DNA of 64,000 nucleotides. Source: Candidatus Kerfeldbacteria bacterium. GTDB taxonomy: Bacteria > Patescibacteriota > Patescibacteriia > UBA10025 > JAHIVO01. Under the pieces are notes generated by a model that saw nothing but the letters and a program-made list of their open reading frames with translations, was not told where the DNA came from and ran no database searches. The stretch is taken from positions 119,654-183,653 of the forward strand of contig JACROE010000002.1 of NCBI GenBank assembly GCA_016214565.1, given 5' to 3'. Within the stretch, counting starts at the first letter, position 1. Each line of letters starts with the position of its first letter. Shown one piece after another: positions 1,945 to 46,729 of this stretch. A program made the position numbers and the translations under genes.

Positions 1945-3003
1945 TTACAATGATACTTTTTCTACCTCGGTTTGCACCTTCGTCACCTTGAAAAAATGAA
2001 GCCACTTCAGGACATGGTAGAGTATAGCCGCAAATATTTTTATGAGCTCGCGGCAAAAGAGGGCAAACACGTTGAGCAAAAAGAACATGCTCAAGGCAAG
2101 CAAAGCGGGAATAAATTTCTCATACGGACCCACATACCGTGTAATATTTTTCGCCACCACTTTTCGCACTACTGAATCCATCCGTTCATCACCGGTCGCT
2201 TCGATCTCGAATGATTTGAGAAATTCATCGCGCGCTTTGGCAATCACTTCCTGTTCAGCGATGGCAATGCCGGCCTTGATCTGCCGATCGAGCTCCTCAA
2301 TATCTGGCGTCAATTCCTCGATCTCAGACAGTCCCTGCTTCTCGAGATCGCCGATGCGAATAATATTTGCAATAAAGGCGTCTAAACTCATGTCCGGATT
2401 ATACCCCTCTCCGTAGAATTGATTGAGACCCAGATTGACTGCCTCCATACTCGCATCGACCAGGCCATTGATCACATCTGATTCGGACTGCGCTCGATCA
2501 GTGATAAAGCCGAAGTACATAACTGACAGAGCCAAAAGGATTATAGAAACCGTGCTGCGCAAACCCGTGTCCAACGTCTGCCGCGGTTTAAACATGGTGC
2601 GGGTTTTCATGTCATTTGAAATACTGCGACGCCAGATGTACCACCCCGCCGCCATGATCGCCGCCGCCAGCAGACTCCAGATACTCACGCCGAAGAACAG
2701 CAAACCAGTCGCAGCGGCAACTACGCATACGAGCAAAAAATACCAACGCATGGTGACGAAAATTTCTGTGAGGGCAACTACAGAAAACATGAGGCAGAAA
2801 GCTAAAAGAGTCGAGGCGATCGTTACTAAATTACTCAGATGAAATGAAAATTCAACCGAGGTCAAGGCATTGTGCCACGCCAACCAAAACAATGCCGTGG
2901 CCGCAATCACCAAGCCAAACAGCACCATCAATTTCTGCATGGGCTGGGCTGGTTTAAAATCTTTAAGCTTAGGCAATTCTGCTTTCGGTTGTTCGACGCG
3001 CAT
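1945..3003 (-). CDS. hypothetical polytopic membrane protein (352 aa)
   Basis: Several predicted TM helices at both ends and a coiled-coil/acidic middle; no recognised family. Confidence 0.55.
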   Translation of the reverse strand: MRVEQPKAELPKLKDFKPAQPMQKLMVLFGLVIAATALFWLAWHNALTSVEFSFHLSNLVTIASTLLAFCLMFSVVALTEIFVTMRWYFLLVCVVAAATGLLFFGVSIWSLLAAAIMAAGWYIWRRSISNDMKTRTMFKPRQTLDTGLRSTVSIILLALSVMYFGFITDRAQSESDVINGLVDASMEAVNLGLNQFYGEGYNPDMSLDAFIANIIRIGDLEKQGLSEIEELTPDIEELDRQIKAGIAIAEQEVIAKARDEFLKSFEIEATGDERMDSVVRKVVAKNITRYVGPYEKFIPALLALSMFFLLNVFALFCRELIKIFAAILYHVLKWLHFFKVTKVQTEVEKVSL

Positions 3004-17567: not shown

Positions 17568-18431
17568 CTAAAGAAAACGGAATGTCTCAATAATTTTATC
17601 CATTCCCTGAAGCAATGCTGACTCTTCCTCAGTAAGGTTATTTCTGTTTATCAACCTTCGCAATTCAGAATCGGTTACACTATCCCAAGCTTGGGTGTCA
17701 TTACTCGTGCAGTCCCATCCCCCATCGGTAAATAATATTGAACTGATAATAAGTCCTTTATAAATCGAATGATCAATGTTCAGCCAACTCTCTCTGATAA
17801 ACATGGGTGAACACTCAGGAGCATCAAAACGTAGTCTATCAAAGGTATTCTGACCTGCCACAGTCTTATTGACGCAGTACGAATAATCCTCAATAACACC
17901 GGGAGTCGAACATTCTTGAGCTAAATTCGCCCCACCATTATATGAGGTAAGTGCAACAAAATCTCGATAATCACTTGAGGATAATCGTATGTTTGGTTTT
18001 GTTGAGTTCTCAAATGTAATATTAACCCCCTGCCCCTCATAATAACTCCGTTCGTCATTTCTATAATCATTATTTGTCACCTTAACGACACCCCAGTTAT
18101 TCGGATATTGAAAACTAATCCCATACTCCTCATTCTCATACGTCAGCCAATCCGACGTATCTACTGTGGTAATATCGGCATTCGTATTGATATTCGAATT
18201 TGCGTTGAGATTTAGATTGACGTTCACATTCTCTATGAATGTCTTGCCATTGATGGTGCACTGCCCAGGATAAATAGCTAAAACCTGACCGACAGCTTTC
18301 GCGCATTCCTCAAAACTATCAACGGAATCGTATTGATGCTGATTAAAATACCATGCAGTGCTAACCATCAAAACCGCCACCAGGGAAATGGCGATAACGA
18401 CGACGATGGCGATAAAACCGCGATTGAGCAT
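17568..18431 (-). CDS. secreted or anchored protein with conserved RGF N-terminus (287 aa)
   Basis: N-terminus MLNRGFIAIVVVIAISLVAVLMV; N-rich linker; Cys-containing C-terminal domain. Confidence 0.55.
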   Translation of the reverse strand: MLNRGFIAIVVVIAISLVAVLMVSTAWYFNQHQYDSVDSFEECAKAVGQVLAIYPGQCTINGKTFIENVNVNLNLNANSNINTNADITTVDTSDWLTYENEEYGISFQYPNNWGVVKVTNNDYRNDERSYYEGQGVNITFENSTKPNIRLSSSDYRDFVALTSYNGGANLAQECSTPGVIEDYSYCVNKTVAGQNTFDRLRFDAPECSPMFIRESWLNIDHSIYKGLIISSILFTDGGWDCTSNDTQAWDSVTDSELRRLINRNNLTEEESALLQGMDKIIETFRFL

Positions 18432-18439
18432 TGTAAGCC

Positions 18440-20065
18440 TTACTTAAGAAATGGGAACTGAATGGTATCCCTTATTTCCAAATAAACACCCAGCAAATCA
18501 TCATAGAACTCAAAATTTGTATAATAAACTATCATTTGATCATCAAAAATTGGAAAACATGTATAAGCAGCAACATCTGTTGTGCCATTATTTCCAATCA
18601 AATATTCCGCTTCAATCCCCGACACACTAATAGTTTCAGTGGTTGACAGACTTTTTACTGATACATTTGCCCAAGCAATTGCTTTGCATTGGTCAAAAAG
18701 TGGCGATGATAAATCATAAGGCTTTACAATGAACTCAATTTGGCGCGCATGATTCTTCTTCAAATTTTCAGTATCGCCTAAGAAAATTCGCGTATCTCTC
18801 CCTATTTGCCAGCTTGCTGGATGATAGAAATTAATGATTACTGACCTGAAATCAGAATAATATTGATCCCAATCCTTATATTGGGGGATAGATGCCGCAT
18901 ACCCAGGTGTCATAACGGTAATGCTCTCGGCTATGCGTAAAAATATTTGCTCGAGTTGTTGATGATTTTCAACATTTGCCCAGCCATCCAACATAAACCA
19001 CCTTCCATCTTTTATAAATCCAATTTGCGTATGATAGGATTCCCGCTTCGCAATACTCCACTTATCTAACGCTACATAACCATTAACGCCGGAAATGACG
19101 CCCTGACTTTGAAATGTCTCTGGATCCCACCACGTTGAAGGTGGTTCAAACTCCCAAGCTTCAATACCAACTGACATTCCTTGCTTGGTAATATGACTAC
19201 TCCACGGACTGGTACCATCGTCTCCAACAACTAAATCAGAACTTTGCGCTACCTTTCTATCATATGAATAGATGTGAGTTGACCCGGCTTCGAGGGTCCA
19301 ATTGCCAGGATATTCGTATGAATATTCACCTCCGGCGGAAATATATTTCTGCCAGGTGCCATTCAATGCTTCATCAATTAGTTCTTGACTCTCACGGTAG
19401 CTGGTTGATCCAGCGGCGGTATTTATTTTTTCATTCGTGTTGAGTGGCTGAGTTGCTTCGTTAACCAGTACCGAAGGCTTAATTTCTGAATAAACTTCAA
19501 ACCGATAAATAACATCCTCTTCCTCTTGTAGCGAAGTATTTGCCGTAACCACGGTAAAAATGTTACCACGGGGTATCAGATAATAATGCCTCATTGTCGT
19601 CCCCACTTCGACACTCGCATGTCGGCCGATAATATGGCCAACCTGGAACTCCTCCCAGGAGGAAATATCAATACTTTCAGACTCATACAAATAGTCTTTC
19701 AATTCACTCTCGCTCAGATTTGCTTGATCAACGATGATATACATAAATCCATCCGCCTGCTTGACCCCAATACTATTAATCACGTTACCAAGAAACATAC
19801 TACTACGATTATCAGAATAATCTTTGATAGCTAACTCTTTGGGATAATAAAACCGATATCCAAATGTATCATTCTGATATATGGCATAATCAACTTTTTC
19901 TGCCTCTGGTATCACTATAGTTGAGTCCTTGATGTTCGGCTGGACTGCCACAACTTCGATATCCCTACTCCCCCGCTCAGTGACCACTGCCACGGTCAGC
20001 ATTAAGATGGAAATCAAAGAAATGGCGATAACAGCCACGATGTGAACAAAGCCTCGCTGATTCAT
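18440..20065 (-). CDS. secreted or anchored protein with conserved RGF N-terminus (541 aa)
   Basis: N-terminus MNQRGFVHIVAVIAISLISILML, paralogous to the N-termini at 17568 and 20948. Confidence 0.55.
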   Translation of the reverse strand: MNQRGFVHIVAVIAISLISILMLTVAVVTERGSRDIEVVAVQPNIKDSTIVIPEAEKVDYAIYQNDTFGYRFYYPKELAIKDYSDNRSSMFLGNVINSIGVKQADGFMYIIVDQANLSESELKDYLYESESIDISSWEEFQVGHIIGRHASVEVGTTMRHYYLIPRGNIFTVVTANTSLQEEEDVIYRFEVYSEIKPSVLVNEATQPLNTNEKINTAAGSTSYRESQELIDEALNGTWQKYISAGGEYSYEYPGNWTLEAGSTHIYSYDRKVAQSSDLVVGDDGTSPWSSHITKQGMSVGIEAWEFEPPSTWWDPETFQSQGVISGVNGYVALDKWSIAKRESYHTQIGFIKDGRWFMLDGWANVENHQQLEQIFLRIAESITVMTPGYAASIPQYKDWDQYYSDFRSVIINFYHPASWQIGRDTRIFLGDTENLKKNHARQIEFIVKPYDLSSPLFDQCKAIAWANVSVKSLSTTETISVSGIEAEYLIGNNGTTDVAAYTCFPIFDDQMIVYYTNFEFYDDLLGVYLEIRDTIQFPFLK

Positions 20066-20094
20066 ATATTTGTATTAGTGATTACCCTCTTATG

Positions 20095-20988
20095 TTACCA
20101 AAAATATGCCGTGATGTAACTAGTGACGGCCGGGATTGAGGTATCACCGGTCACGTCCACCGTATCCAGGGAATCCAATATTTGTACGTGGCCAACTCGG
20201 CGCTCATGGAGGTAATGGAAAAGTACCGACAAACTGGCCGGCGAATCAACATAGATACCTTTGGTCGTCTCCGGATCCATAGTTTTCAGCAGTTCAATGC
20301 TGGCCGCGTTCTGCAGCATAGCCTGCCGATGATTTACATTGTGCGCGAAATCCACGCTGACTAGCACCAGACTATTTTCCGGCAACCGCTGCGCCAGCCA
20401 ATCCCCCAGCTGTGTCAGCTCCTCCGCTGACGTATGCTGCTGGATAGTAATCGGTACGATACTGGCTCGAGGGAAACTGCGACGGATAAAAGCCACTTCA
20501 GAAGTGATGGAATGCTCCACGTCAAAGAGCGACTCATCAATCGTAACCACGCCATCGGCTGCCATCGATTCTATGATGGGCGTGTGCGGATATAATATCC
20601 CGTAAGGCGTGTACCAACTGCCCACCGAGGTGGCGATATGGTAATCACTGCGATTTAAATGGTCAGGTCCGATGAGCACAATGACTTCCGGGGATTGGAC
20701 TGATTCAATCCCCTGAAAAAATTCCGCGATCACATGTGAGGCGATCAAATGATGCGGGATAATGCCGCCGCGAACCATCCCCTCTGGCGCAGGTGGCGTA
20801 TTACGCGTATACGCCAGATCAAAGAATTCTTGCTCCACGAAGAATGACCGGTGCACCACGGTGGATGCTGGCCGGCCATTCACTGCATTACTAAAATATA
20901 TGGCGCTGCCGATCAGGAATAGACTGATACTAAGAATGATAACAACCTTAGCGTAACGCACCGCCCCATTCGACAACAGTAAATCCAT
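20095..20988 (-). CDS. MEMO1/AmmeMemoRadiSam-B family protein with N-terminal TM anchor
   Basis: GGIIPHH...GPDH...SVDFAHN motifs match the Memo/LigB-like fold; start taken at ATG 20988 (the ORF-track start 21021 overlaps the upstream gene by more); hydrophobic N-terminus AKVVIILSISLFLIGSAIYF. Confidence 0.55.
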   Translation of the reverse strand: MDLLLSNGAVRYAKVVIILSISLFLIGSAIYFSNAVNGRPASTVVHRSFFVEQEFFDLAYTRNTPPAPEGMVRGGIIPHHLIASHVIAEFFQGIESVQSPEVIVLIGPDHLNRSDYHIATSVGSWYTPYGILYPHTPIIESMAADGVVTIDESLFDVEHSITSEVAFIRRSFPRASIVPITIQQHTSAEELTQLGDWLAQRLPENSLVLVSVDFAHNVNHRQAMLQNAASIELLKTMDPETTKGIYVDSPASLSVLFHYLHERRVGHVQILDSLDTVDVTGDTSIPAVTSYITAYFW

Positions 20989-23191
20989 CGCGTGCTGGCG
21001 TCCGTATTTCCAGCGGCTCAACGGTAATCGGTTTGTCCAGGCCCTGATAATCCATGAAGACGCGGATAACGCTGTCTGGCCGCGGTGACACAGTCAGTGG
21101 CGCCAGGGTGTCGAAGACCGCCTGGTCAACGAAGGTCACGAAGTAGTACGGCTGCTGCTGCATGCGGGGCACCCAGAACTTTATGAAGTCAGCTGATTCT
21201 TTTTCATTCAATCCGAGCAAGGCTAATTTCTCCTCAAGGAATGACCCAACATCCGCTCGCGCTACCACGAAGCCTTTTTCTGGCGTGACGTAATTAATCC
21301 CCTTTCCTTCCCAGAAGAGATAGGGATAAGTGAGGCCGTCAGCGTAATCTAACGTGCCATCAGGATGCGCAATCACGTTCCATCCACCCACGGGATATAA
21401 TGGATCAGTGATGGAGAACCCGCCATTGGGATCAACTTGCACATTCACCTCCATCGTGGACTGCGGGTACAGGTAAATCACGGGTTTGCCACACTCGACG
21501 GCTGGTAAATAAGTTACCCGAGTAAACCGCACCCAGTGATCCAACGGGTCTTTCCAGAAGAACATCGGACGGTCGGCCACGAAATCATCATAGTCCATCT
21601 TTTCTTCCTGGTAGGGGGCGTAATACATATCATACGCGGACTTCAGTATTTGAGCATCGGTATCCTTAAACGTATATACCTTGTCCCCTGATGACGTCGT
21701 GCCCATCACTTTCAGCGCGCTGATGCCGCCTAATTCTTCCTCGGTATACATGGCGTGGCACGAGGTGGAGCCGCACCCGCCGGCTGGCTCACTGAAAGTG
21801 TACTCATCGTCATTGGTCGTGCCGTCGCTCCAGGTAATCGCGGGGACGGACTGATTTGTTCCAACAGAATATTCGCGTTCCGTAAAATCACGGATGAAAT
21901 CAAGTTTGAGATGATACAGCTTCACCGTGCCATCATCGCGCACGATCAGGTAGCAATCGTCCGCCGGGTCAAAGAATACCGAACCCAAATCGTCATCTTT
22001 AAACGCTTCGCGGGCCTCGGCATGATCAGTATAAAATTCGTTAGTATCAAAAGCTTCAGCTACCAAATCAACATCGCTATTGGGGATATCGATCTCTTCT
22101 GGCGTCACCAGATCGGGAATGGTCGAGCCAATATCATAAGTGAATTTTGAACCGAGATATGACAGATTGTCTGAATATTTCTCGAGGTAGACAAACGTCT
22201 TAGCCGTCTCGTCAAATACCACTCGATACAGATTTGGATAGAATGCCGGACCCTCAGGCCACTCGAGAATAACGACGAGCGCGTCTCCCTCGTACCGGCC
22301 ATTAGTGATTTGCCCCACGTCATAGTAGAATCGCCGGGTATACAGTGACCCGCTGCTGGTTATAACTGGATCAATCAGATTTAATTCTAGTGGTGACTCG
22401 CGCCAAATCACTTCGAGCTCATATCCTTGGCTAGCGGCAATGGCGGTGGTCTTGGTTTCAGCAGGTATGGTAATCAAGGGTAGTGGATCGATGAACCGGA
22501 AACTTTTCCAAATAGTATTGATTGTTCCGCTAACCAGCGCTAGATCGGGCGCATAACCATGAAAAGCAAATTCATACACCCGCTCATCGCCGGCGATAAA
22601 CGCCCAGACCGTCGTGTAGTCGCTGGTATTTTGGGATACGTCCAGCACGATAATCTCGCCTTCAGTACCCTCTATCGTTTTTGGTTCATTGAAGACATAT
22701 TCATCCGCGAATGTCTCTTGATATTTGCTCACCCACGTTGCCAGACTGTCATTGCTCGCATTCTTATGATAGATGACATCTCCGCTGACCCTACTCTCAC
22801 CCTGCGCAATACCATTGACCCATAATAAATAATCATTGTCATTGACGCCCATACTGGAGGAGCCATCATCCCAATCGCTGGGAATATCGATGGCGATTCC
22901 GTGATCAGCCTTCTGATAGGTAATCGTCTGCCAACCGTCAGCCGCCGCAGTGGTGGTCGTATCATGAGGCGCAATATTCACCGGCTCAAGATCAACCACA
23001 TAATTTGCATTATCCGCTAAATACGGATCCTGTGACTGGGGGCCATTGGTTATCGTTATGTTCTGCGATCCACCGTCATTATCCTCAGTATCATTGTACT
23101 CTACGTACCAGGCCGCACCCACCATGACGATTGCTACCAGGACAATGGCAATAACCGGAACAAAATAGACAAAGCCCCGTTGATCTTTCAT
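20948..23191 (-). CDS. large secreted or anchored protein with conserved RGF N-terminus (747 aa)
   Basis: N-terminus MKDQRGFVYFVPVIAIVLVAIVMV; no recognised catalytic motifs. Confidence 0.55.
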   Translation of the reverse strand: MKDQRGFVYFVPVIAIVLVAIVMVGAAWYVEYNDTEDNDGGSQNITITNGPQSQDPYLADNANYVVDLEPVNIAPHDTTTTAAADGWQTITYQKADHGIAIDIPSDWDDGSSSMGVNDNDYLLWVNGIAQGESRVSGDVIYHKNASNDSLATWVSKYQETFADEYVFNEPKTIEGTEGEIIVLDVSQNTSDYTTVWAFIAGDERVYEFAFHGYAPDLALVSGTINTIWKSFRFIDPLPLITIPAETKTTAIAASQGYELEVIWRESPLELNLIDPVITSSGSLYTRRFYYDVGQITNGRYEGDALVVILEWPEGPAFYPNLYRVVFDETAKTFVYLEKYSDNLSYLGSKFTYDIGSTIPDLVTPEEIDIPNSDVDLVAEAFDTNEFYTDHAEAREAFKDDDLGSVFFDPADDCYLIVRDDGTVKLYHLKLDFIRDFTEREYSVGTNQSVPAITWSDGTTNDDEYTFSEPAGGCGSTSCHAMYTEEELGGISALKVMGTTSSGDKVYTFKDTDAQILKSAYDMYYAPYQEEKMDYDDFVADRPMFFWKDPLDHWVRFTRVTYLPAVECGKPVIYLYPQSTMEVNVQVDPNGGFSITDPLYPVGGWNVIAHPDGTLDYADGLTYPYLFWEGKGINYVTPEKGFVVARADVGSFLEEKLALLGLNEKESADFIKFWVPRMQQQPYYFVTFVDQAVFDTLAPLTVSPRPDSVIRVFMDYQGLDKPITVEPLEIRTPARDGFTVVEWGGALR

Positions 23192-23830: not shown

Positions 23831-24400
23831 TTAATCGCCGACGTACGTTTCGGCAGCCACATACACGTTCCAAGTGGCTTTCCCACCAGGTACGTAGACT
23901 GATGCCCCAGCTGCTCCCGTCATCTGCGCGGTTTCAATGACCACGGTGTACGCCTGGACTGTGTCACCATCTATGGTTCTAGCCTCAGCAAACGTGTACG
24001 TCGCAGTTTTCGCGTCTTCACTGAAGGAAATGGTGGCCGGCACCTTCTCCTCAACCCCCTGTAGTACATAGAAATTTTCCTGGCTGATCGTCGTCGAATC
24101 AATCGGTTCGCTAAACGTAATCGTAACCGCCGATAACTCGTCCACCGTGCTACCTGCCTGCGGCGTCGCATCCACCAGGGCAATATCAGACCGGCGATTA
24201 GCATTCACCGTATTGGCGTTACCATTGACCGTCGGTGCTTCTGCCGGACTGACAAACACCACATAAAAAGCAATGATAAAACCAATAACCACAATGGTAC
24301 CGACGCCAAGCCATAATTTGAGTTTAGCCTGACGGACTGGATCCGGTGCTGGTTTCGTATTCATAGCCATGCTCATAGTATACCAAAAACCGCGCGGCAA
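23831..24400 (-). CDS. membrane-anchored protein with an Ig-like (Big/SbsA-like) extracellular domain
   Basis: TM segment LGVGTIVVIGFIIAFYVVFV, then a β-rich domain with a TITFSEPID-type motif; the start may be the internal Met at 24376. Confidence 0.45.
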   Translation of the reverse strand: MPRGFWYTMSMAMNTKPAPDPVRQAKLKLWLGVGTIVVIGFIIAFYVVFVSPAEAPTVNGNANTVNANRRSDIALVDATPQAGSTVDELSAVTITFSEPIDSTTISQENFYVLQGVEEKVPATISFSEDAKTATYTFAEARTIDGDTVQAYTVVIETAQMTGAAGASVYVPGGKATWNVYVAAETYVGD

Positions 24401-27878: not shown

Positions 27879-28688
27879 CTAGTCATTCGGATAGACGACC
27901 ACAATTGCCTTCCTGCCGTTATCCACGTCTCCCCCGTTCCAATCATGCATGGCGCTCATCACCACGTCGATATCATATATGTAGTTTTCGCCCTTACGGG
28001 TGCCGACGTCATTGGTAACAAACGTATCAGCCGTATATCCTCGTACCACAAACATATGATACAGCGGTCCGCCATTGCGAAAATTTGGATTGCCCAGTTG
28101 CTTGCCTGCTGCCGGAATAATAACGGGGCGCCCAGCGGCCACGTGGCGCTTAATCTGATCTATCGTCGGATCATATTCTACATCTACTCGCTGATATCCC
28201 CAATACTCCTTAATCACCCGAGCGGTTTCCTCGGCAGTAGTATCTTTATAGTATCCAAGGATGTCTTCCTCCCAGGCAACCAAGTCCAAAATTTCGCGGT
28301 CAGCAATTTCCGCGGAGAATGTTTTTTGTGCGTAGTAATAATGCACGGTTAATGCCGAGGCTTCCTCGCAGGCTTCCTGATACGGATAATCCCAATTCGC
28401 AAACGGTGCCTGAGTAGTAAAGGGTAAAGCCAGATTAAATTCATTTGGGATAGTGGTAGGTTCAGTGACGACTGAGGCAGTATTAATATTCTGATTTGCC
28501 TCCGAACCCGCATTGGCATTGAGGGCGCGTTGCTCATTGACAATCTCAGAAAATGAAACCGGCTCAGGCGCTGGCTCTGACATCCAATTATCCCAGACTT
28601 CAACAACCCGGTGCCGACCTAAATAAGCCAGACCGGCAACGATAAAAACAATCAGCAGTAAATTAAAGGTAAATAGGCCTTTTCGCAT
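27879..28688 (-). CDS. secreted protein with C39-like (peptidase_C39_2/YvpB-like) domain
   Basis: Signal anchor; Cys in QEACEEASALTVHYYY and His in HMFVVRGY, consistent with a papain-like C39-like fold. Confidence 0.5.
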   Translation of the reverse strand: MRKGLFTFNLLLIVFIVAGLAYLGRHRVVEVWDNWMSEPAPEPVSFSEIVNEQRALNANAGSEANQNINTASVVTEPTTIPNEFNLALPFTTQAPFANWDYPYQEACEEASALTVHYYYAQKTFSAEIADREILDLVAWEEDILGYYKDTTAEETARVIKEYWGYQRVDVEYDPTIDQIKRHVAAGRPVIIPAAGKQLGNPNFRNGGPLYHMFVVRGYTADTFVTNDVGTRKGENYIYDIDVVMSAMHDWNGGDVDNGRKAIVVVYPND

Positions 28689-29715: not shown

Positions 29716-31614
29716 TTATTCTACCACAACTCCGCTATTTCCGAGGAGTCCCCACATCCAGAGGAAATGACTCAGCGACAAATAACGCTCACCCGCTAAT
29801 GGATCCATAACAATGATTTTCGTCGGCGCGGCGGCAGAGCCGACAAATCCCGTCACCACAAACGTGTGCTCGCCATTCACCGCGATAATATCTTTTCCTT
29901 CCGGCGTTTTCCAGTCAATTCGTGTTCCACTCCCGGCTGTTCCCCAGATAACGATGGGATGACCCTTCTGTATTTCACCTATTAAGTGGCCAAGCTCTCC
30001 GCCGGTAAAAGCGCGCGTGGTGCGATACGCCGATCCGGCTGCCGCAATCGGATCCCAATACACTCCATATCCCGTTGATGGCTGGTGGCCGTCGATATCG
30101 CCGACAAATGCTTCATAGGGATCACCCCAAATACCATTTGATTTTGGTGTAGGATCAAAACCAATTGCGTCAATCAATTCCTGTTCACCGACGTTGGCTC
30201 CGAAATAATTGAGCGCCATTTTCAGGGTGGCTACTTCACAGCTTAAATTATGGTCTTGGTGATCATAAACCACGCCTAATTTAGTAACGGAAAGTTCAGT
30301 AGAAAATGAAGATGAATAATCTGATTCGAGCGTCAAGCCGCCGGTTCCCTTCACCCCAGCGGCAATGGTGGCCGTATAGGTAGTATTGAAATCAAATGGT
30401 TCGCCAGGGGTGAATATCATCGTATTCTCATCCCAGCTCACGGTTCCGTCTACGGATGGGCTAAGCGACAATTTGGCTTCGGCCGATGCATGATCCACTG
30501 CCTGATTGAACCCAAACTGCAATCGGGCATTGACGCTGACACCGGTACTATCCGAGGTTGGTGTAGAGATAGCCACGCGCACCGGTCCGATCGTGGTGAA
30601 ACTATGCGTAGCGCTTTCCGTCAGGTAACCGCCGGTGAAGGTAGGCAGCCCTTCTGTAAGCGTCACCGTATACGTCATATCACGCTCTAATTTTTTTGGA
30701 GTAAAGGTTACGGTTCGATAATCAGTCGTTGCCCACGCTCCATCAATGCTGGGATCAAACGTCACATATGCAGGCAGCGATTCCATATCAATATTTTCTG
30801 AAAACGTGATCGTGATCGGCGTATTCAGCGGTACACCAGTGCCCTGCGGTGCAAATGAATCAATGCCCGGCGCTTCGCGTACCGTCCACGATTGTTTGCG
30901 AGCTACCACCGGTTCAGTTCGTGCGGCAATCTCATTGGTGCCAAACAAATATCGCAGTGTTTGCTGGCTGACGATCATCGTATACTGCGCACCCTGGGAT
31001 AATTTGCTTTTTGGCGTTACCACATAGGACTCCTGATCGCTGCCGGCTACCATATCAAATTCAATAGCCGGTTCGAATCGAACCGACCAGCTGCTCGTTG
31101 TTTCGATTGGTTGGTCAAAAGCGATGGTCCAGGAACCGTCAGCACGAAAAGGCTCATCGCTATTCGGCATAATGCTCGTGACAGCCTGGGCTGGAGGAGT
31201 TTTGAACGTCAACACATAGTCAGTCGGTTCAGTAAAAGACGGGGTAGCGCCGTGGACCGCGTGCAACGTAATTTCATAGGTTGTATCCGGCAGCCAGGTT
31301 AATTCCGGGGTGAACACCAGTGTGCGAACCAATTGATCGCGAATCACCGCTTCATCGTAACTGACGGTGCCAAATACCTGCGGGGTAATCGATACTTCCA
31401 CATCACGCGCAATCGGCCAATCAAAATTAATAACCAATGATTGATCAAGCGGCTGTATATCATCGACAATACTGATGATAGTTGGTTGCGGCGATTTACC
31501 CCCCATGACCACGGCGATTAACCCAACAAAGAGCATCGCGCTGACGATGCTGATAATAATGTAATGGGTATGGGTAAGTATAATTTTTTTTGTTTTTGTT
31601 TGGAAAACTTCCAT
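29716..31614 (-). CDS. large surface protein: N-terminal anchor, tandem Ig-like (Big/SbsA-like) domains, C-terminal C39-like peptidase domain
   Basis: Repeated β-rich TITFSE/LQFGF-type segments; C-terminal LSCEVATLKMALNYFG...EHTFVVTG (Cys/His); extended -10 promoter TGTTATAAT at 31632-31642 (minus strand). Confidence 0.55.
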   Translation of the reverse strand: MEVFQTKTKKIILTHTHYIIISIVSAMLFVGLIAVVMGGKSPQPTIISIVDDIQPLDQSLVINFDWPIARDVEVSITPQVFGTVSYDEAVIRDQLVRTLVFTPELTWLPDTTYEITLHAVHGATPSFTEPTDYVLTFKTPPAQAVTSIMPNSDEPFRADGSWTIAFDQPIETTSSWSVRFEPAIEFDMVAGSDQESYVVTPKSKLSQGAQYTMIVSQQTLRYLFGTNEIAARTEPVVARKQSWTVREAPGIDSFAPQGTGVPLNTPITITFSENIDMESLPAYVTFDPSIDGAWATTDYRTVTFTPKKLERDMTYTVTLTEGLPTFTGGYLTESATHSFTTIGPVRVAISTPTSDSTGVSVNARLQFGFNQAVDHASAEAKLSLSPSVDGTVSWDENTMIFTPGEPFDFNTTYTATIAAGVKGTGGLTLESDYSSSFSTELSVTKLGVVYDHQDHNLSCEVATLKMALNYFGANVGEQELIDAIGFDPTPKSNGIWGDPYEAFVGDIDGHQPSTGYGVYWDPIAAAGSAYRTTRAFTGGELGHLIGEIQKGHPIVIWGTAGSGTRIDWKTPEGKDIIAVNGEHTFVVTGFVGSAAAPTKIIVMDPLAGERYLSLSHFLWMWGLLGNSGVVVE

Positions 31615-39561: not shown

Positions 39562-39861
39562 TTAAGGTTTAAAGGGTAATTGCTGCTGGGTATTAAACAT
39601 TTTTTTTGCGTATCGGCGTCCCGGTACGGTCATGCGCACTTCGTCAATAAACCATTTCTCCGGCGTGCGGCGGCCGTAACCGATGAGAAGTCCCCGCTCA
39701 ATCAAACGCTCGATGCTCCGACTGATAATGCGCTGTTGGTCATCCGCCGAGGGTTTCTTCTTTTGGCTCGAATAAAACTGTTTCAACCTTGTACGCTGCA
39801 GCCTCCCCTTGGCGTCATAGGCGCTCGTTAGGATGAATCGCTGGAGCGGAGAAATGATCAT
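39562..39861 (-). CDS. hypothetical basic protein (99 aa)
   Basis: 4-bp overlap with aspS; lysine- and arginine-rich; no recognised family. Confidence 0.4.
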   Translation of the reverse strand: MIISPLQRFILTSAYDAKGRLQRTRLKQFYSSQKKKPSADDQQRIISRSIERLIERGLLIGYGRRTPEKWFIDEVRMTVPGRRYAKKMFNTQQQLPFKP

Positions 39862-41264
39862 GCTTTTTTCTTGTCAGTTATGGAGATATGGAGATCCTTC
39901 AGCTGTTTTGCCGACACGTTACTTGGCGAGCCGGTCATTGGTTCTCGATTATCACCGGTCTTGGGGAACGCCACCACTTCTCTGATGCTCGATTCATTGA
40001 AGAGAATCATCAATAACCGATCAATCCCCGGGGCAATGCCGCCATGAGGTGGAACGCCATAGGTAAACGCTTCTAACATATGCCCAAATTGCTCTCGCGC
40101 CTCATCCTTCGTAATGCCCACCAATTCAAATATTTTTTCCTGAATCTTCGGATCAGTGATCCGCAGGCTGCCACCGGCCACCTCATATCCATTGAGGGCG
40201 ATATCGTGCTGCCAGGAGCGAACCTTTTGCGGTTCTGTAGCGAGCAGTGGAATATCCTCAGTTTTTGGTGCGGTAAACATATGGTGTGCTGGAGCATAAT
40301 GACCATCTTCTTTTTCTGGTTCGAAGAGCGGCCAGTCAACTACAAAACAAAAAGCAAGTTCATGCGGATCATTTTTATTTTTTCGCAAATCAGGCTTGTC
40401 ATTGCCGTATTTCTGCATCGCCTCATCATACGTCAAACGCGGCCAGGGGGAATAAGTTATGTGCTTTTCGGGAAATAGCGTCTTCACCAGATTGGTATAC
40501 AGCGTCTCAATCAATTGCAAAATATCCTCCTGCGTGACGAATGACATTTCGATATCCAACTGATAAAACTGATCCGGCGACCGATCACCGCGGGAATCCT
40601 CATCACGGAAACAAGGCGCTATTTGGAAATACTTATCCAGCCCCGCAACCATGAGCATCTGCTTATACTGCTGAGGAGACTGGGGTAGTGCATAAAACTT
40701 GCCCGGATAAACTCGGGATGGAACGAGATAATCTCGCGCACCTTCAGGAGTTGATTTGGCTAGGATAGGCGTCTCTACCTCGATGAAGCCAAGCTTGTGC
40801 AATTCAGCGCGAATAAATTGAATGACTTTGGACCTCATGATCAATTGCCGCTGCTTACGCGGACGACGCAAATCAAGGTAGCGATATTTATAGCGCAACT
40901 CTTCCCCCACTTCCGCCTTATCAGTATCCACGATTTCAAACGGAGGAGTTTGGGATTCTGAAATGATTTCAAGTCCGGTAGCCTGAATCTCGACTGTGCC
41001 GGTTGGATAATCATGATTCACTAATTTCTCTGGACGGGCTTTGACAATACCGGTGACGGCCACCACAAATTCGGGACGAAGTTTCTTGGCTGTTTCGAGA
41101 ACTGCTGCATCGTCCGGAGTAAACACAATTTGCACAATCCCCGTTACGTCGCGCAATTCAACAAAAACCATCTTGCCTAAACGACGCGTGACATGTATCC
41201 AGCCTTTAAGTTCGACGGTATCGCCGATCTGGTTTATTGTATTTCGAATGTATGAACGTGACAT
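39858..41264 (-). CDS. aspS: aspartyl-tRNA synthetase (compact archaeal/eukaryal-like type lacking the GAD insertion)
   Basis: N-terminal OB fold, class II motifs, FRDEDSRGDRSP signature; 468 aa. Confidence 0.88.
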   Translation of the reverse strand: MSRSYIRNTINQIGDTVELKGWIHVTRRLGKMVFVELRDVTGIVQIVFTPDDAAVLETAKKLRPEFVVAVTGIVKARPEKLVNHDYPTGTVEIQATGLEIISESQTPPFEIVDTDKAEVGEELRYKYRYLDLRRPRKQRQLIMRSKVIQFIRAELHKLGFIEVETPILAKSTPEGARDYLVPSRVYPGKFYALPQSPQQYKQMLMVAGLDKYFQIAPCFRDEDSRGDRSPDQFYQLDIEMSFVTQEDILQLIETLYTNLVKTLFPEKHITYSPWPRLTYDEAMQKYGNDKPDLRKNKNDPHELAFCFVVDWPLFEPEKEDGHYAPAHHMFTAPKTEDIPLLATEPQKVRSWQHDIALNGYEVAGGSLRITDPKIQEKIFELVGITKDEAREQFGHMLEAFTYGVPPHGGIAPGIDRLLMILFNESSIREVVAFPKTGDNREPMTGSPSNVSAKQLKDLHISITDKKKA

Positions 41265-41271
41265 AAGCGTA

Positions 41272-41886
41272 TTACAGTGTTACCGTCGCCAGTATCTGCG
41301 CGCTGGCTTCATTAAATTCTATTTCAAATAAGTTATTGGCATTGATGAAAAAAAGATTGTCTTCATTTGGATCACCGGAGGTCTGCCGATACACCGTTGC
41401 GATTTCATCAGCGACCTTTTCGGTGTACGATTGATAAATATTTGGAGAAACGCCAGTCAAACGCTGATAAATTTTCCCCACTGGCGTTTCATCCTCGATT
41501 TCACCCGGCGTCAATGGAAAAGCTTTAAAGCTCAAAGAATCCGCCGCATCAGCAGCGCGCAATTCAATGAGTGTCCCCTCATACACGCCGTAGGCAATTG
41601 AATCCTCAAAAAGCGTGTAATCATCAGGGTATTTGAATGCTATGCTCAGTTCGTCCGATGTATACTGCTGCCAGCCGGACGTATCGACAGATTCAGGAAT
41701 GCGGACAACGTTCGAGCGAAATGTTTTAATAATTAAAATATTTGAAGTTGGTGTAGGATTCTCAATCCAGAAGAAATACAAAATGTAAAACACAAATAAG
41801 ACGATGGTCACCTCCATCAGAATGATAGAGATCCCCCAAAATGTCGAAATGCCTCGCTGTGCGAAAAAATTCATACTTAAATGCAA
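41272..41886 (-). CDS. hypothetical TM-anchored protein (204 aa)
   Basis: Single N-terminal TM helix; no recognised family. Confidence 0.45.
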   Translation of the reverse strand: MHLSMNFFAQRGISTFWGISIILMEVTIVLFVFYILYFFWIENPTPTSNILIIKTFRSNVVRIPESVDTSGWQQYTSDELSIAFKYPDDYTLFEDSIAYGVYEGTLIELRAADAADSLSFKAFPLTPGEIEDETPVGKIYQRLTGVSPNIYQSYTEKVADEIATVYRQTSGDPNEDNLFFINANNLFEIEFNEASAQILATVTL

Positions 41887-42248
41887 AGGTTATGAGTCAA
41901 GCATGTTTGGCCTGCCGCGATACGTTCATACGCATCGCAACTCGGTGATTCAGCCCCACCAAACGTAGTATAGCCGCACCAGAGAATCGTTTCGCCAGAT
42001 GCCTTCACCACGACATCACCGACGCCAACGCAGGTGCTGCGCAATACATAATGATCGGCACAGCCAAATACCTGATCTACCTGGCATTCGATGGGATATT
42101 GCGCATGCCGCTGCCCACAAAATCGTTCAGCTATTTCCTTATCAGGGTTGGCCTGATTAACGTTAATAGCGATGCCATTCAGTAGCACTAATGACAAAGC
42201 TAAAAGACCGAATAAAATAATCCATCGTGCTGATATTCCACCATGCAT
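41877..42248 (-). CDS. hypothetical secreted Cys-rich protein (123 aa)
   Basis: Signal peptide and 8 Cys. Confidence 0.45.
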   Translation of the reverse strand: MHGGISARWIILFGLLALSLVLLNGIAINVNQANPDKEIAERFCGQRHAQYPIECQVDQVFGCADHYVLRSTCVGVGDVVVKASGETILWCGYTTFGGAESPSCDAYERIAAGQTCLTHNLCI

Positions 42249-42252
42249 ATGT

Positions 42253-43554
42253 TTAGGGTCGCAAACGATTTAATAATCGAGGAAAAGGTATAGTTTCGCG
42301 CACATGATCCAGGCCGCACAGCCACGCCACTGTCCGCTCAAGCCCGATACCAAATCCTGAGTGCGGCACGGATCCGTATTTCCGTAAATCTAAATACCAA
42401 CCAAAATCAGATTCTGACAGTTTGTGCTCTTTCAGCCGTGAACGCAATAATTCATAATCCCAAATGCGCTCCGACCCACCAATGACTTCCCCATAGCCCT
42501 CGGGGGCAAGCAAATCAGCGCACAAAGCAAATTTTTGATTCTCCGGGTCTGGCTGCATGTAAAAGGCCTTTATCGCAACTGGGTAATGGGTCACAAACAC
42601 GGGCTTGTCGTATTGCTTCATTAACATCGTTTCATCGTCAGCCCCGAAATCATCACCGTGCTTAATATCTGAACCTAACTTTTGTAGTGCCACGATGGCA
42701 TCGTCATAGCGCAGGCGAACAAATGACCCCTGTACTTTTTGTAACGCCGCTACATCACGCTCGAGAATTTGTAATTCTGCCGCACGATTGGCTAATACTG
42801 ATTGCACAATATGCGTCACCAAGCGCTCTTGGATTTGTAAATTTTCTTCATGCTGGACAAAGGCCGCCTCAGCATCCAGCATCCAAAATTCCATCAGATG
42901 GCGCCTCGTTTTTGACTTCTCTGCTCGGAAGGTCGGTCCGAAATCATAGACTTTCCCAAGCGCCATGGCGAGCGCCTCAAGGTATAATTGCCCCGACTGG
43001 GATAAATACGCCTTTTCTTCAAAATAGTCAGTGGCAAAAAGCGTGGTCGTCCCTTCACAGGCAGTTGGCGTCAAAATGGGCGTATCAGTCAGCGTGTACT
43101 GTTCTTGACGGAAAAACTCACGCATGGACCAGATAATCTCATCTCGGACACGCATAATCGCCCGCTGCCGTTCAGCACGTAGCCACAAATGCCGATGGTC
43201 GAGCAAAAAATCAACGCCATGCTCTTTCTTGCCAATCGGGTATTCCTCAGCCCGATGAACTAATACGACTGACGAAACGTGCAATTCATAGCCAAATGGC
43301 GAGCGAGTATCAGCTCTGACCGTACCCGAAACTTCCACGCTTGATTCAAGTGTCAGCTGCTCGCAAGCAACCCAGCTCTGCTCGTCAACGGTTTCACGGC
43401 TAACCACCCCTTGAATTCGGCCAAATCCATCTCGAATTTGTAGAAAATATATCTTGCCTGAACTTCGAAAATTAAAAACCCATCCACGGATGGTTACTTG
43501 CTCCCCTTCATGCGACTTGAGCTGCGAAAGATGGATAGGTTTCATAGAGTGCAA
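42253..43554 (-). CDS. asnS: asparaginyl-tRNA synthetase
   Basis: [21 protein letters not shown] motif 2 and class IIb architecture. Confidence 0.92.
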
Positions 43555-46366: not shown

Positions 46367-46729
46367 TTAGCTGGTCACGGTGTCTGCCGTATTGACGACA
46401 AAAGTCACAATTGCCCAAGCTAAGAGTACAACGATTAAACCGACAACTGCTGCGCTGATAATCTTTTTGGCGGTGCCTACTTTATCCTCATTGCCACCAG
46501 CCGTAATCCAAACGAAGCCTCCGTACAGAATCATGATAACCGCGATCAAACCGAGGAAGCCGAGTACCCATTGAACGATGTTAACAACGGTTGATTCGAG
46601 GTCAGCAGTTCCGAGACCGAAGGTGTTGCCATAGTTACCAATATTCACCTGAGCTGAGGCTACCACTGGCATTACCAAAACGACGGCCAGAGTAAGAGCG
46701 GTAATAATTTTTTTAGTCATTCCATTCAC
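46367..46729 (-). CDS. TrbC/VirB2-like (T4SS-type) pilin candidate
   Basis: Signal peptide, then two TM helices with ...LGFLGLIAVIMILYGGFVWITAGGNEDKVGTAKKII..., the pattern I recall for CPR T4SS pilins; SD AAGGGGGTG. Confidence 0.5.
   Translation of the reverse strand: MNGMTKKIITALTLAVVLVMPVVASAQVNIGNYGNTFGLGTADLESTVVNIVQWVLGFLGLIAVIMILYGGFVWITAGGNEDKVGTAKKIISAAVVGLIVVLLAWAIVTFVVNTADTVTS

What the first reader, a model, noticed from the sequence alone, without database searches (positions are those of the whole stretch)
17568..23191. Conserved N-terminal 'RGF' anchor shared by three paralogous large proteins
The three N-termini are:
- MLNRGFIAIVVVIAISLVAVLMVSTAWYF
- MNQRGFVHIVAVIAISLISILMLTVAVV
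- MKDQRGFVYFVPVIAIVLVAIVMVGAAWYV

They share a short polar head, an invariant RGF, and then a hydrophobic stretch of about 20 residues (V.VIAI.LV..LM). The rest of each protein is unrelated.

A conserved N-terminal module with G-F at the junction is formally similar to class III (prepilin-type) signal peptides, which are cleaved after Gly. However, it lacks the bacterial Glu+5 and the FTLIE core, so it is closer to archaeal-type prepilin signals. The alternative is a family-specific signal anchor recognised by a dedicated sorting machine. Either way it marks a sorting signal that is not the canonical Sec or lipoprotein type.
Basis: seen in the sequence. Interest (0 to 1): 0.62.

Follow-up and report, generated by a model that had tools for sequence, protein, structure and literature searches.

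The report
Shared RGF membrane anchor, three surface proteins
Three neighbouring genes of an uncultured Kerfeldbacteria (CPR) bacterium start with the same short "RGF + 21 hydrophobic residues" module, which is most likely an inherited membrane anchor for fast-evolving surface proteins that looks like a pilin leader without its glutamate, not a demonstrated new sorting signal.

Summary
Three minus-strand ORFs (287, 541 and 747 aa) start M-x(2-3)-RGF followed by about 21 hydrophobic residues, and they are the only strict matches in the window. Their similarity is far above that of unrelated anchors.

The source is a Candidatus Kerfeldbacteria MAG. The module meets three of four class III (prepilin) criteria: a 5-6 aa polar leader, Gly at -1, and 21 hydrophobic residues. 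It fails the rest:
- Position +5 is Val, not Glu.
- No N_methyl/TIGR02532 model match.
- The P0001 model is not a pilin lollipop: TM helix, Cys mini-domain, disordered Asn-rich linker, PsbP/Mog1-fold domain.
- No prepilin peptidase or pilus gene in the 64 kb.

Most telling, RGF is not kept in orthologues. None of six orthologues of the 747-aa protein has it. The closest relative of the 287-aa protein (77% identical domain) reads TNY. A syntenic relative has two neighbours sharing a different, RGF-less N-terminus.

[KR]G[FIL] anchors recur in a CPR family of PsbP-like surface proteins, and rare members carry a true GFxxxE signal. Only 5% of CPR/DPANN N-terminal anchors have Gly at the junction.

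Best reading: an inherited Sec/SRP signal-anchor module of tandem paralogues. Incidental or functional PilD clipping remains possible and untested.

The parts
18345..18431 (-). N-terminal module of P0001: leader MLNRG, then F + 20 hydrophobic residues, then the aromatic WYF
   Evidence: AF2 places a helix at residues 6-32 with pLDDT > 90.
17568..18431 (-). P0001 (287 aa, MBI5037213.1, HZC01_00680). Order of parts: TM helix, small Cys mini-domain (res. 40-66), disordered Asn-rich linker (72-87), PsbP/Mog1-fold domain (96-287).
   Evidence: Foldseek best hit is cyanobacterial PsbP 2xb3, E 6.8e-4, followed by Mog1p, LpqN and DcrB. Pfam PsbP_2 scores 26 bits against a cut-off of 27. 1342 relatives at E <= 1e-3.
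19982..20065 (-). N-terminal module of P0002: leader MNQRG, then F + 22 hydrophobic residues
   Evidence: A nearly identical module sits on a different ectodomain in a close relative (P0021/L002, 21 of 28 identical).
18440..20065 (-). P0002 (541 aa, HZC01_00685). Orphan ectodomain with up to three W.Y...G..F.YP..W domain starts.
   Evidence: No homologue at E <= 1e-3 apart from itself. Only the first ~82 aa resemble P0021. Weak PsbP-like start motif.
23102..23191 (-). N-terminal module of P0003: leader MKDQRG, then F + 20 hydrophobic residues, then WYV
   Evidence: The six orthologues have unrelated generic anchors.
20948..23191 (-). P0003 (747 aa, HZC01_00695). Order of parts: anchor, acidic/Asn-rich linker, PsbP-like domain start (~85-235), conserved C-terminal region of unknown fold.
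   Evidence: Orthologues at 47-55% identity. hhalign to the P0001 family E 7e-8. The AF2 model has low confidence, pLDDT 50.
20095..21021 (-). TM-anchored Memo / AmmeMemoRadiSam-B homologue between P0003 and P0002. It is a conserved partner gene of P0003-like genes and does not carry the RGF module.
   Evidence: Pfam Memo 6.6e-22, TIGR04336 1.7e-24. The same adjacency is seen in L001, L085 and L086.
41272..41886 (-). Looser candidate: a 204-aa protein starting (MHLS)MNFFAQRGISTFWGISIILMEVTIVLFVFYILYFF. This is a QRG-I junction of the 'QRGIST' subtype also seen in P0088 and P0155.
   Evidence: It occupies the syntenic position where L006 has two tandem MKPKGFIP... genes. No Pfam family.
27879..28688 (-). 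Looser candidate: a Peptidase_C39_2-like protein starting MRKGLFTFNLLLIVFIVAGLAYLG ([KR]G[L] junction).
   Evidence: Its orthologue in L001 (6893-7702) starts MKTRRALTEVIIFLIF, with no Gly.

Best explanation
The RGF module is an N-terminal signal-anchor. One Arg stays on the cytoplasmic face. A Gly-Phe sits at the inner interface. About 21 apolar residues span the membrane, and a Trp/Tyr belt marks the outer interface. Sec/SRP inserts it N-in/C-out, and it then tethers the ectodomain to the membrane of a wall-bearing, outer-membrane-less CPR cell.

The three genes share the module because they descend from one ancestral anchored gene, or reuse its first ~30 codons. They belong to a small tandem family of surface proteins built as anchor, flexible Asn-rich linker and PsbP-like domain. 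In this family the ectodomains diverge or are swapped very fast, while the anchor is kept at the protein level.

The module probably derives from, or has converged on, a type IVa prepilin leader that lost Glu5. Clipping after Gly by a prepilin peptidase is chemically plausible but is not required for function.

Shown: sequence, topology-compatible composition, fold, paralogy, synteny, non-conservation of RGF.
Inferred: Sec/SRP insertion, lack of cleavage, surface exposure.
For: (1) Architecture. AF2 of P0001 (pLDDT 90) gives helix 6-32, a mini-domain, a disordered linker at 72-87 and a PsbP/Mog1-fold domain. In bacteria this fold typically occurs on membrane-tethered or lipoprotein extracytoplasmic proteins (DcrB and LpqN are among the hits).

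(2) Interchangeable anchors.
- The six P0003 orthologues (47-55% identical) all have an N-terminal TM segment but never RGF, e.g. KRFLWVLVPVLAVVALGAWAYLF and SRAKWLIITGIIIIIVGGGL.
- P0011, 77% identical to P0001 in the PsbP domain, keeps the TM core (AIALVAVLM vs AISLVAVLM) but reads TNY instead of RGF.
- Proteins selected only on the Cys mini-domain carry generic anchors, lipoprotein signals, KGF anchors or a GFxxxE signal.

(3) Within-genome sharing is a repeated pattern, independent of RGF.
- In syntenic L001, the P0003 orthologue and the gene after Memo both start METPQK.S.K..PLLIIIVVVLAIGVGIYAA (33 of 40 aa identical; one search gives the count, another the DNA alignment).
- In L006, two adjacent genes both start MKPKGFIP.

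(4) The window trio is old and conserved at the protein level. About half of the codons for identical residues differ.

(5) Gly at the junction occurs in only 19 of 377 (5%) short-leader anchors across 1.29 Mb of CPR/DPANN loci plus the window. It is therefore a family trait, not a general signal.

(6) No pilus or peptidase genes in the 64 kb.
Against: - The leader (Q/N-R-G-F, 5-6 aa) and the 21-residue hydrophobic tract fit the class III definition too well to dismiss.
- Among relatives of P0001, about half of the short-leader anchors have G-[FILYV] at the junction, with a tight leader length of 3-6 aa. That set is biased, because the N-terminus contributed to the search score.
- Subfamilies keep the 28-residue module 65-82% identical while ectodomains are about 30% identical or unalignable. 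That is unusually high for a plain anchor.
- A small-x-Ala motif (STA|W, TVA|V, GAA|W) at the outer end could be a signal-peptidase I site.
- No experiment or dedicated predictor (SignalP, DeepTMHMM) could be run.
- Only 64 kb of a 1.116-Mb contig was visible.
Confidence: 0.5

Rival explanations
1. It is a degenerate class III (prepilin-type) signal. The genome's prepilin peptidase (PilD) cuts after Gly on the cytoplasmic face and removes MLNR-G / MNQR-G / MKDQR-G, leaving Phe1 (possibly N-methylated). The charge-free hydrophobic helix is then either a weaker tether or is handed to the type IV pilus machinery. The PsbP-like proteins would then be displayed on or near pili. This would be analogous to the class III signals on Sulfolobus sugar-binding proteins (bindosome), or to E5-less tip pseudopilins.
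For: - Three of four defining features are met: leader 5-6 aa, Gly-1, 21 hydrophobic residues. Gly-1 is the critical determinant and Glu5 is 'always dispensable for processing' (PMC4471445).
- Homologues with a genuine GFxxxE signal sit on the same ectodomain types (L019, P0076).
- Some relatives read like pilins with E5 changed to I/V (MQRGFSLIIVLIGLVVL, MQKGFSLVIVLIALLIL).
- PilD and type IV pili are widespread in CPR (PMC6744442).
- The TM7x adhesin-like minor pilins PilX1/PilX2 have non-canonical signal peptides (PMC12206443).
- The best, non-significant, NCBIfam hits of two N-termini are pseudopilin-type models: PRK10557 at 11.7 bits and HpsB at 13 bits, E about 0.1.
Against: - Val, not Glu, at +5 in all three proteins.
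- No N_methyl or TIGR02532 hit even at E <= 10.
- Not a lollipop fold: the helix ends at residue 32 and a disordered linker separates it from the globular domain.
- Gly is lost in close orthologues. Cleavage therefore cannot be essential.
- No pilus or peptidase gene within 64 kb, nor in about 6 kb beyond the left end.
- The genes sit beside hrcA-grpE-dnaK and Memo, not in a pil locus.
Confidence: 0.22
2. It is an ordinary Sec (class I) signal peptide of the long, Gram-positive type, cleaved by signal peptidase I after STA26 / TVA26 / GAA27. The PsbP-like proteins would be released into the wall space. The conserved RGF would simply be the n-region/h-region boundary.
For: - All three proteins, and many relatives (..LVGAA|WYYE..MVGAA|WWYSE), have small residues at -3 and -1 just before the aromatic residues.
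- Total length of 26-27 aa is typical for monoderm signal peptides (own knowledge).
- The same genome clearly uses Sec signals, e.g. window 46367-46729 ...VVASA|QV.
Against: - The hydrophobic tract is 18-21 residues with only a 3-residue, still apolar 'c-region' and no helix breaker in P0001.
- AF2 continues the helix confidently through the putative site to residue 32.
- A conserved Trp/Tyr/Tyr belt right after the site is typical of a membrane-interface anchor rather than a mature N-terminus.
- Orthologues with other anchors lack any small-x-small site (e.g. ...GLTYGYVTYF).
Confidence: 0.2
3. The anchors are kept alike within a genome because they interact in the membrane with a common, genome-specific partner. 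Candidates are a dedicated sorting or assembly factor, the neighbouring TM-anchored Memo-like protein, or each other. The module would then be a recognition helix rather than a passive tether.
For: - Anchors are similar within a genome but dissimilar between genomes in the window, L001 and L006.
- Protein-level conservation persists despite diverged codons.
- Some subfamilies have highly conserved modules.
- The P0003-Memo gene pair is conserved in four genomes.
Against: - Class-wide, KGF anchors are only 27-35% identical against 20% for generic anchors. About 8 points of that excess come from the definition of the class.
- Common descent of tandem paralogues explains the same pattern without a partner.
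- The Memo anchor is unrelated in sequence.
- No candidate machine was identified.
Confidence: 0.08

Closest known systems
Class III signal peptide of type IVa prepilins / pseudopilins (Pfam N_methyl PF07963, TIGR02532 'GFxxxE'; e.g. P. aeruginosa PilA MKAQKG|FTLIELMIVVAIIGILAAIAIPQY)
   Same: Short polar leader ending in [KR]-Gly, Phe at +1, about 21 hydrophobic residues, and aromatic residues around +22 to +26. Leader length is 5-6 aa against 6 aa in PilA. Gly-1 is the residue the peptidase needs.
   Different: Val instead of Glu at +5. No T/S-L-I at +2 to +4. No HMM match. The helix is 27 rather than about 50 residues and does not pack on the globular domain. A long disordered linker follows. 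The ectodomain has a PsbP/Mog1 fold. No pil genes are nearby. Gly is not conserved in orthologues.
Class III signals on non-pilin proteins: Sulfolobus bindosome sugar-binding proteins; Glu5-less archaeal pilins; TM7x PilX1/PilX2 'non-canonical signal peptide' adhesin-pilins
   Same: Large non-filament ectodomains behind a prepilin-like N-terminus that lacks Glu5. The organisms are CPR, where type IV pili dominate surface biology.
   Different: Those proteins are encoded with, or depend on, a dedicated Tff machinery, and the archaeal ones have shown processing. Here there is no genetic linkage and no processing data. The recalled FlaFind-type pattern is met only by P0001.
Uncleaved N-terminal signal-anchor (type II single-pass membrane protein) of monoderm surface proteins
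   Same: One basic residue, then at least 20 apolar residues, then an aromatic belt and a flexible linker to an extracytoplasmic domain. It is interchangeable with lipoprotein signals in homologues.
   Different: The specific, recurrent [KR]-G-[FIL] junction with a very tight 3-6 aa leader. The module is conserved well above the ectodomain in some subfamilies.
Multigene families of variable surface proteins with a conserved leader (e.g. Mycoplasma Vlp/Vsp lipoproteins; recalled from general knowledge)
   Same: Clustered paralogues share a conserved N-terminal export/anchor sequence. The exposed parts are hypervariable or shuffled.
   Different: Here there is no lipobox, no conserved 5' UTR or promoter cassette (upstream DNA is not conserved), no repeats, and no evidence of phase variation.

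Membership tests
Bacterial class III (type IV prepilin) signal peptide | Hydrophilic leader of about 6-26 aa | tested here: met
   The leaders MLNRG, MNQRG and MKDQRG are 5-6 aa, and the start codons are unambiguous. This lies at or just below the lower bound quoted in PMC4471445.
Bacterial class III (type IV prepilin) signal peptide | Leader ends in an invariant Gly (-1) followed by a hydrophobic +1 residue | tested here: met
   R-G-F in all three. It is not conserved in orthologues: TNY in P0011, and no Gly in P0005-P0010.
Bacterial class III (type IV prepilin) signal peptide | About 21 predominantly hydrophobic residues after Gly | tested here: met
   21, 23 and 21 residues before the first aromatic or charged residue. 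AF2 helix at 6-32.
Bacterial class III (type IV prepilin) signal peptide | Glu at +5 | tested here: not met
   +5 is Val in all three: FIAIV, FVHIV, FVYFV.
Bacterial class III (type IV prepilin) signal peptide | Match to the N_methyl (PF07963) or TIGR02532 profile | tested here: not met
   No hit on the full proteins at E <= 0.01, nor on the 40-aa N-termini at E <= 10. Only 11.7-13 bit hits to PRK10557 and HpsB at E about 0.1.
Bacterial class III (type IV prepilin) signal peptide | Pilin 'lollipop' fold: an alpha-1 helix of about 50 residues packed on a beta-meander | tested here: not met
   In P0001 the helix ends at residue 32, a disordered linker lies at 72-87, and the globular domain has a PsbP/Mog1 fold with no pilin among the Foldseek hits. 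The P0003 model is too poor to judge.
Bacterial class III (type IV prepilin) signal peptide | Dedicated prepilin peptidase (Peptidase_A24) and Tff machinery in the genome or neighbourhood | tested here: inconclusive
   None in the 64-kb window. No such family appears among the 25 of 52 Pfam families displayed for the ORF set, in the targeted scans, or in the TM census; the only unannotated polytopic ORF, 1945-3003, has no Pfam hit. None in about 6 kb beyond the left end. The remaining ~1.05 Mb of the contig could not be read.
Bacterial class III (type IV prepilin) signal peptide | Actual cleavage after Gly and N-methylation | not testable with these tools
   This needs N-terminal proteomics or a PilD co-expression assay.
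Archaeal-type class III signal (FlaFind-like pattern [KRDE][GA][ALIFQMVED][ILMVTAS]x3, recalled from memory) | Pattern match at the leader/hydrophobic junction | tested here: inconclusive
   By inspection, RGFIAI (P0001) fits, while RGFVHI and RGFVYF (P0002, P0003) do not. DPANN homologues of the mini-domain use lipoprotein or generic signals.
Sec class I signal peptide (signal peptidase I) | Basic n-region, h-region, c-region with small residues at -3 and -1 | tested here: inconclusive
   STA|W, TVA|V and GAA|W are present. But the h-region is 18-21 residues, the c-region is only 3 apolar residues, and the AF2 helix runs through the site. No SignalP was available.
Lipoprotein (class II) signal | Lipobox [LVI][ASTVI][GAS]C at the end of the h-region | tested here: not met
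   No Cys in the first 40 residues of any of the three. Homologues elsewhere do have lipoboxes.
N-terminal signal-anchor (single-pass, N-in) | Basic residue(s) followed by an uninterrupted apolar helix of at least 20 residues, with no cleavage | tested here: inconclusive
   Composition and the predicted helix fit. Absence of cleavage and the topology were not testable.
PsbP_2 / PsbP-Mog1 fold domain (ectodomain of P0001) | Pfam PF18933 match and PsbP-like fold | tested here: met
   PF18933 scores 26 bits against a cut-off of 27 (just below). Foldseek top hits are PsbP 2xb3 and 1v2b, then Mog1p.

The most novel reading that the evidence does not exclude
CPR bacteria such as this Kerfeldbacterium use Glu5-less, prepilin-like leaders (M-x2-5-[KR]-G|[FIL] plus 21 apolar residues) as a second substrate class of the prepilin peptidase. 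This class would sit on non-pilin surface proteins (PsbP-like, C39-like, Cys mini-domain proteins). Removing the only cytoplasmic charge would let the type IV pilus platform extract or display them, a bacterial counterpart of the archaeal bindosome. The family would have arisen from pilin N-termini, and members with true GFxxxE signals (L019, P0076) would be the intermediates.
Probability: 0.18. Interest if true: 0.65.

Novelty: new member of a known kind. Interest (0 to 1): 0.33.

Why it matters
CPR/Patescibacteria live attached to other cells, and almost nothing is known about how their many orphan surface proteins are sorted and held at the surface.

If the [KR]GF module were a prepilin-peptidase substrate, it would enlarge the substrate range of type IV filament systems in bacteria. 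It would also give a simple sequence handle for predicting pilus-associated adhesins in uncultured lineages.

If it is only an inherited anchor, which the evidence favours, its value is practical:
- It marks a fast-evolving, tandemly expanding family of PsbP-like surface proteins.
- It shows that anchor type (generic TM segment, lipobox, KGF, GFxxxE) is freely exchanged in these lineages.
- It warns that a motif invariant among paralogues of one genome can be misread as a sorting signal.

Tried and rejected
- **Profile search with the N-termini alone.** Rejected for the E-value limit and for length. With 43 aa, only 5 word-sharing candidates were found and nothing scored E <= 10.
- **P0002 homologue search.** It found only itself.
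- **DNA pattern for RGF[VI]x[x]VxVIAI in JGI metagenome contigs.** 0 matches. The exact module is therefore rare.
- **Walking the genome from the window's left end.** This gave about 6 kb of new sequence with no pilus genes. Proteins outside the window cannot be looked up, so the MAG's PilD and pilins could not be checked.
- **Canonical GFxxxE pilins.** None in the window or in L001. Only two in 1.29 Mb of CPR/DPANN loci, too few to compare leaders.
- **AF2 of P0003 with 7 sequences.** pLDDT 50, not usable for a fold search.
- **Recent gene conversion in the window.** Rejected, because about half of the synonymous codons differ and the upstream DNA is unrelated. It remains likely for the much more similar pair in L001.
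- **A general CPR-wide 'KGF' export signal** (my own prior). Rejected, because only 5% of short-leader anchors have Gly at the junction, and only about 6-8 of 80 proteins selected on the mini-domain are KGF-type.
- **Strong class-wide constraint on the KGF transmembrane helix.** Rejected after a fair comparison: 27-35% identity against a 20% baseline, partly by definition of the class.
- **Tat and lipoprotein signals.** Excluded by inspection: a single Arg and no lipobox.

Full report
**1. What is there**

The region holds four co-directional minus-strand genes:
- P0003, 20948-23191, 747 aa.
- A Memo/AmmeMemoRadiSam-B homologue with its own TM anchor, 20095-21021 (Pfam Memo 6.6e-22).
- P0002, 18440-20065, 541 aa.
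- P0001, 17568-18431, 287 aa.

They lie directly upstream of hrcA-grpE-hsp20-...-dnaK. Exact look-up identifies them as MBI5037216/14/13 (HZC01_00695/685/680) of a Candidatus Kerfeldbacteria MAG, on a 1,116,013-bp contig.

Each ATG is the first start after a stop at most 7 codons upstream, so the leaders are firmly MLNR-G, MNQR-G and MKDQR-G. A six-frame scan finds no further [KRQ]GF-plus-hydrophobic N-terminus in the 64 kb. Two looser [KR]G[IL] junctions exist: a C39-like protein at 27879-28688 (MRKGLFTF...) and a 204-aa protein at 41272-41886 (..AQRGISTFW...).

**2. Is it more than chance?**

Yes.
- The three anchors share 13-15 of 24 residues (BLOSUM62 58-74). Random pairs from 374 other N-terminal anchors of CPR/DPANN loci average 7.5 +/- 9.4, and at most 0.1% of them reach these scores.
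- BLASTP of the N-terminus alone gives E = 2e-5.
- The similarity is at the protein level. Nucleotide identity is 61-64%. About half of the codons for identical residues differ (6/13, 8/13, 6/12). Upstream DNA is unrelated. It is therefore an old, selected or slowly drifting module, not a fresh gene-conversion tract.

**3. What the proteins are**

AF2 of P0001 (45-sequence alignment, pLDDT 90) gives:
- a helix at residues 6-32;
- a small Cys-containing mini-domain at 40-66;
- a disordered Asn-rich linker at 72-87;
- a compact alpha/beta domain at 96-287.

The best PDB matches of that domain are cyanobacterial and plant PsbP, Mog1p, and further down LpqN and DcrB. This agrees with a near-threshold Pfam PsbP_2 hit.

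P0003 and P0002 open their first domain with the same W.TY.N..G..F.YP..W hairpin. The evidence is hhalign E = 7e-8 for the P0003 family against the P0001 family and 13.5 bits for P0002. Otherwise they are unalignable.

P0002 is an orphan. P0003 has six orthologues at 47-55% identity.

The trio is therefore a set of very distant paralogues built as anchor, flexible linker and PsbP-like domain(s), with extra domains in some. None looks like a pilin.

**4. Evidence from relatives: the key result**

(a) All six orthologues of P0003 have an N-terminal TM segment but none has RGF or any Gly-Phe, e.g. KRFLWVLVPVLAVVALGAWAYLF, SRAKWLIITGIIIIIVGGGL, HTPLIIIGAVVVLLVAGL.

(b) In the syntenic relative L001 (GCA_041665905.1; gene order: P0003-like, Memo, 392-aa gene, hrcA, grpE, hsp20, dnaK), the P0003 orthologue and the 392-aa gene share a different N-terminus, METPQK.S.K..PLLIIIVVVLAIGVGIYAA.VHDDST. 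It is 33 of 40 aa identical, with very similar DNA. Neighbours sharing an anchor is thus a recurring within-genome pattern that does not need RGF. L006 shows it again, with two adjacent MKPKGFIP... genes.

(c) The closest relative of P0001 (P0011, 77% identical in the PsbP domain) keeps the TM core (AIALVAVLM) but has TNY for RGF. The next relative, P0012, which is syntenic and sits before hrcA in L003, has NGF.

(d) A close relative (L002) has the P0002-type module (21 of 28 identical) on a different ectodomain.

Together these show that the module is inherited and reused. They also show that the RGF tripeptide is not under the strict constraint expected of an obligatory cleavage site.

**5. 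How widespread is the motif?**

phmmer of P0001 against 1.84 billion representatives gives 1342 hits at E <= 1e-3.

Among the best 150, about half of the 94 short-leader anchors have G-[FILYV] at the leader/hydrophobic junction. The leader is a tight 3-6 aa and the outer end often reads G[AG][AG][WY][WYF][YF], e.g. MNNKGFIALVIVILISVMAVGLVGAAWYYE and MQKGFSLVIVLIALLILAGLAYG. That set is biased, because the N-terminus contributes to the score.

Two unbiased samples correct it:
- Proteins selected only through the Cys mini-domain. At least 586 loci were found in GTDB representatives, from CPR lineages and DPANN archaea. They mostly use generic anchors or lipoprotein signals. Only about 6-8 of 80 are KGF-type.
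- All short-leader N-terminal anchors in 1.29 Mb of these loci plus the window. Only 19 of 377 (5%) have Gly at the junction.

The motif is therefore a trait of particular families and lineages, not a general CPR signal.

Class-wide, KGF anchors are 27-35% identical to each other against 20% for generic anchors, and part of the excess comes from how the class is defined. Some subfamilies are 65-82% identical over 28 residues while their ectodomains are about 30% identical.

**6. Comparison with class III signals**

By the definition in Berry & Pelicic 2015 (PMC4471445), a class III signal has a hydrophilic leader ending in Gly, 21 mainly hydrophobic residues, and Glu5 almost invariably present in bacteria. 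Gly-1 is critical and Glu5 is dispensable for processing.

The RGF module meets three features and fails Glu5 (Val at +5). Q/N-R-G-F also mimics the -3..+1 of type IVa prepilins. Rare homologues carry a real GFxxxE signal at the same place (L019, P0076). An evolutionary link to pilin N-termini, and cleavability by PilD, are therefore plausible.

Against membership:
- No N_methyl or TIGR02532 match, even at E <= 10.
- Not a lollipop fold.
- No peptidase or pilus genes in the window or just beyond it.
- A housekeeping neighbourhood.
- Loss of Gly in close orthologues.

PilD is widespread in CPR (PMC6744442). Adhesin-like minor pilins with non-canonical signal peptides exist in TM7x (PMC12206443). 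I could not read the other ~1.05 Mb of this MAG, so the peptidase partner remains untested. No paper in the searchable library describes this motif.

**7. Verdict**

- Most likely (about 0.5): an inherited Sec/SRP signal-anchor module of a small tandem family of rapidly diversifying PsbP-like surface proteins.
- Rivals: PilD-processed Glu5-less class III-like signal (about 0.22); long Sec signal peptide cleaved after STA/TVA/GAA (about 0.20); a partner-recognition helix (about 0.08).
- Novelty: a new member of a known kind, a signal anchor with pilin-leader flavour.
- Interest is modest unless PilD dependence is shown.

Noticed in passing
window 20095-23191 (-); L001 9947-13112; L085 4777-8002; L086 1913-5161: A P0003-like gene (750-790 aa, conserved C-terminal region with VECGKPVIYLYP...YPYLFWEG motifs, no Pfam family) lies directly next to, and often overlaps, a TM-anchored Memo/AmmeMemoRadiSam-B gene in four CPR genomes. 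This conserved pair has no known function. No AMMECR1 or radical-SAM partner was seen nearby.
   Followed up: partly
window 23831-24400 (-); L001 9230-9916; L003 8586-9944; P0152: A second conserved N-terminal anchor type, ..TPEQ.K..KKAK[IL].LW.G...IV.IG.I.A.YFVF.., sits at the same syntenic position on quite different ectodomains: Big_5 (189 aa), a Cys-rich 228-aa protein, and a 452-aa beta-propeller. This is another case of a conserved anchor with a swapped ectodomain.
   Followed up: no
P0001 residues 38-68 (window about 18228-18320, -); loci L005-L084: A small Cys mini-domain, consensus NFEECVAAGNPVMESYPRQC..NGQTF.E, follows the anchor in many relatives. It occurs in at least 586 places in GTDB representative genomes, in CPR bacteria and in DPANN archaea (Woese-, Pace-, Nanoarchaeia). 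It has no Pfam family in my scans. The shared distribution hints at transfer between the two groups of episymbionts.
   Followed up: partly
L019 9920-10552; P0076: Mini-domain and PsbP-like proteins with a genuine prepilin-type signal (MIKNNKGFAVVEMLLVLLVIGLIGG..., ..RRCGFTVIEVVIVLAIIALLGG..). These are non-pilin ectodomains behind canonical GFxxxE leaders in CPR.
   Followed up: partly
window 41272-41886 (-) and 41877-42248 (-); L006 8268-11590: Between the two class II aminoacyl-tRNA synthetase genes (tRNA-synt_2: 42253-43554 and 39858-41264), the window has a 204-aa ORF with a QRG-I junction. The syntenic relative L006 has two tandem MKPKGFIP... genes (413 and 537 aa) at the same place. The small upstream ORFs also read ..TRGISG.. 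(L006) and MHGGISARW.. (window).
   Followed up: no
window 46367-46729 (-); L003 2212-2571; L006 3710-4078: A conserved 120-aa protein with a classic Sec signal (..VVASA|QVNIGNYGNTFGLGTADLE). Its L003 counterpart carries a T4SS_pilin (PF18895) hit. It sits next to a P-type ATPase in three genomes.
   Followed up: no
window 27879-28688 (-) and 29716-31614 (-): Two membrane-anchored Peptidase_C39_2-like proteins, one with two Big_5 domains, flank a CorA gene. L001 and L086 have the same C39_2 genes near the P0003 locus.
   Followed up: no
window 1945-3003 (-); L003 19304-20347; L087 8883-9941: A conserved 352-aa protein with six TM segments and no Pfam hit lies immediately upstream of dnaJ in three genomes.
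   Followed up: no
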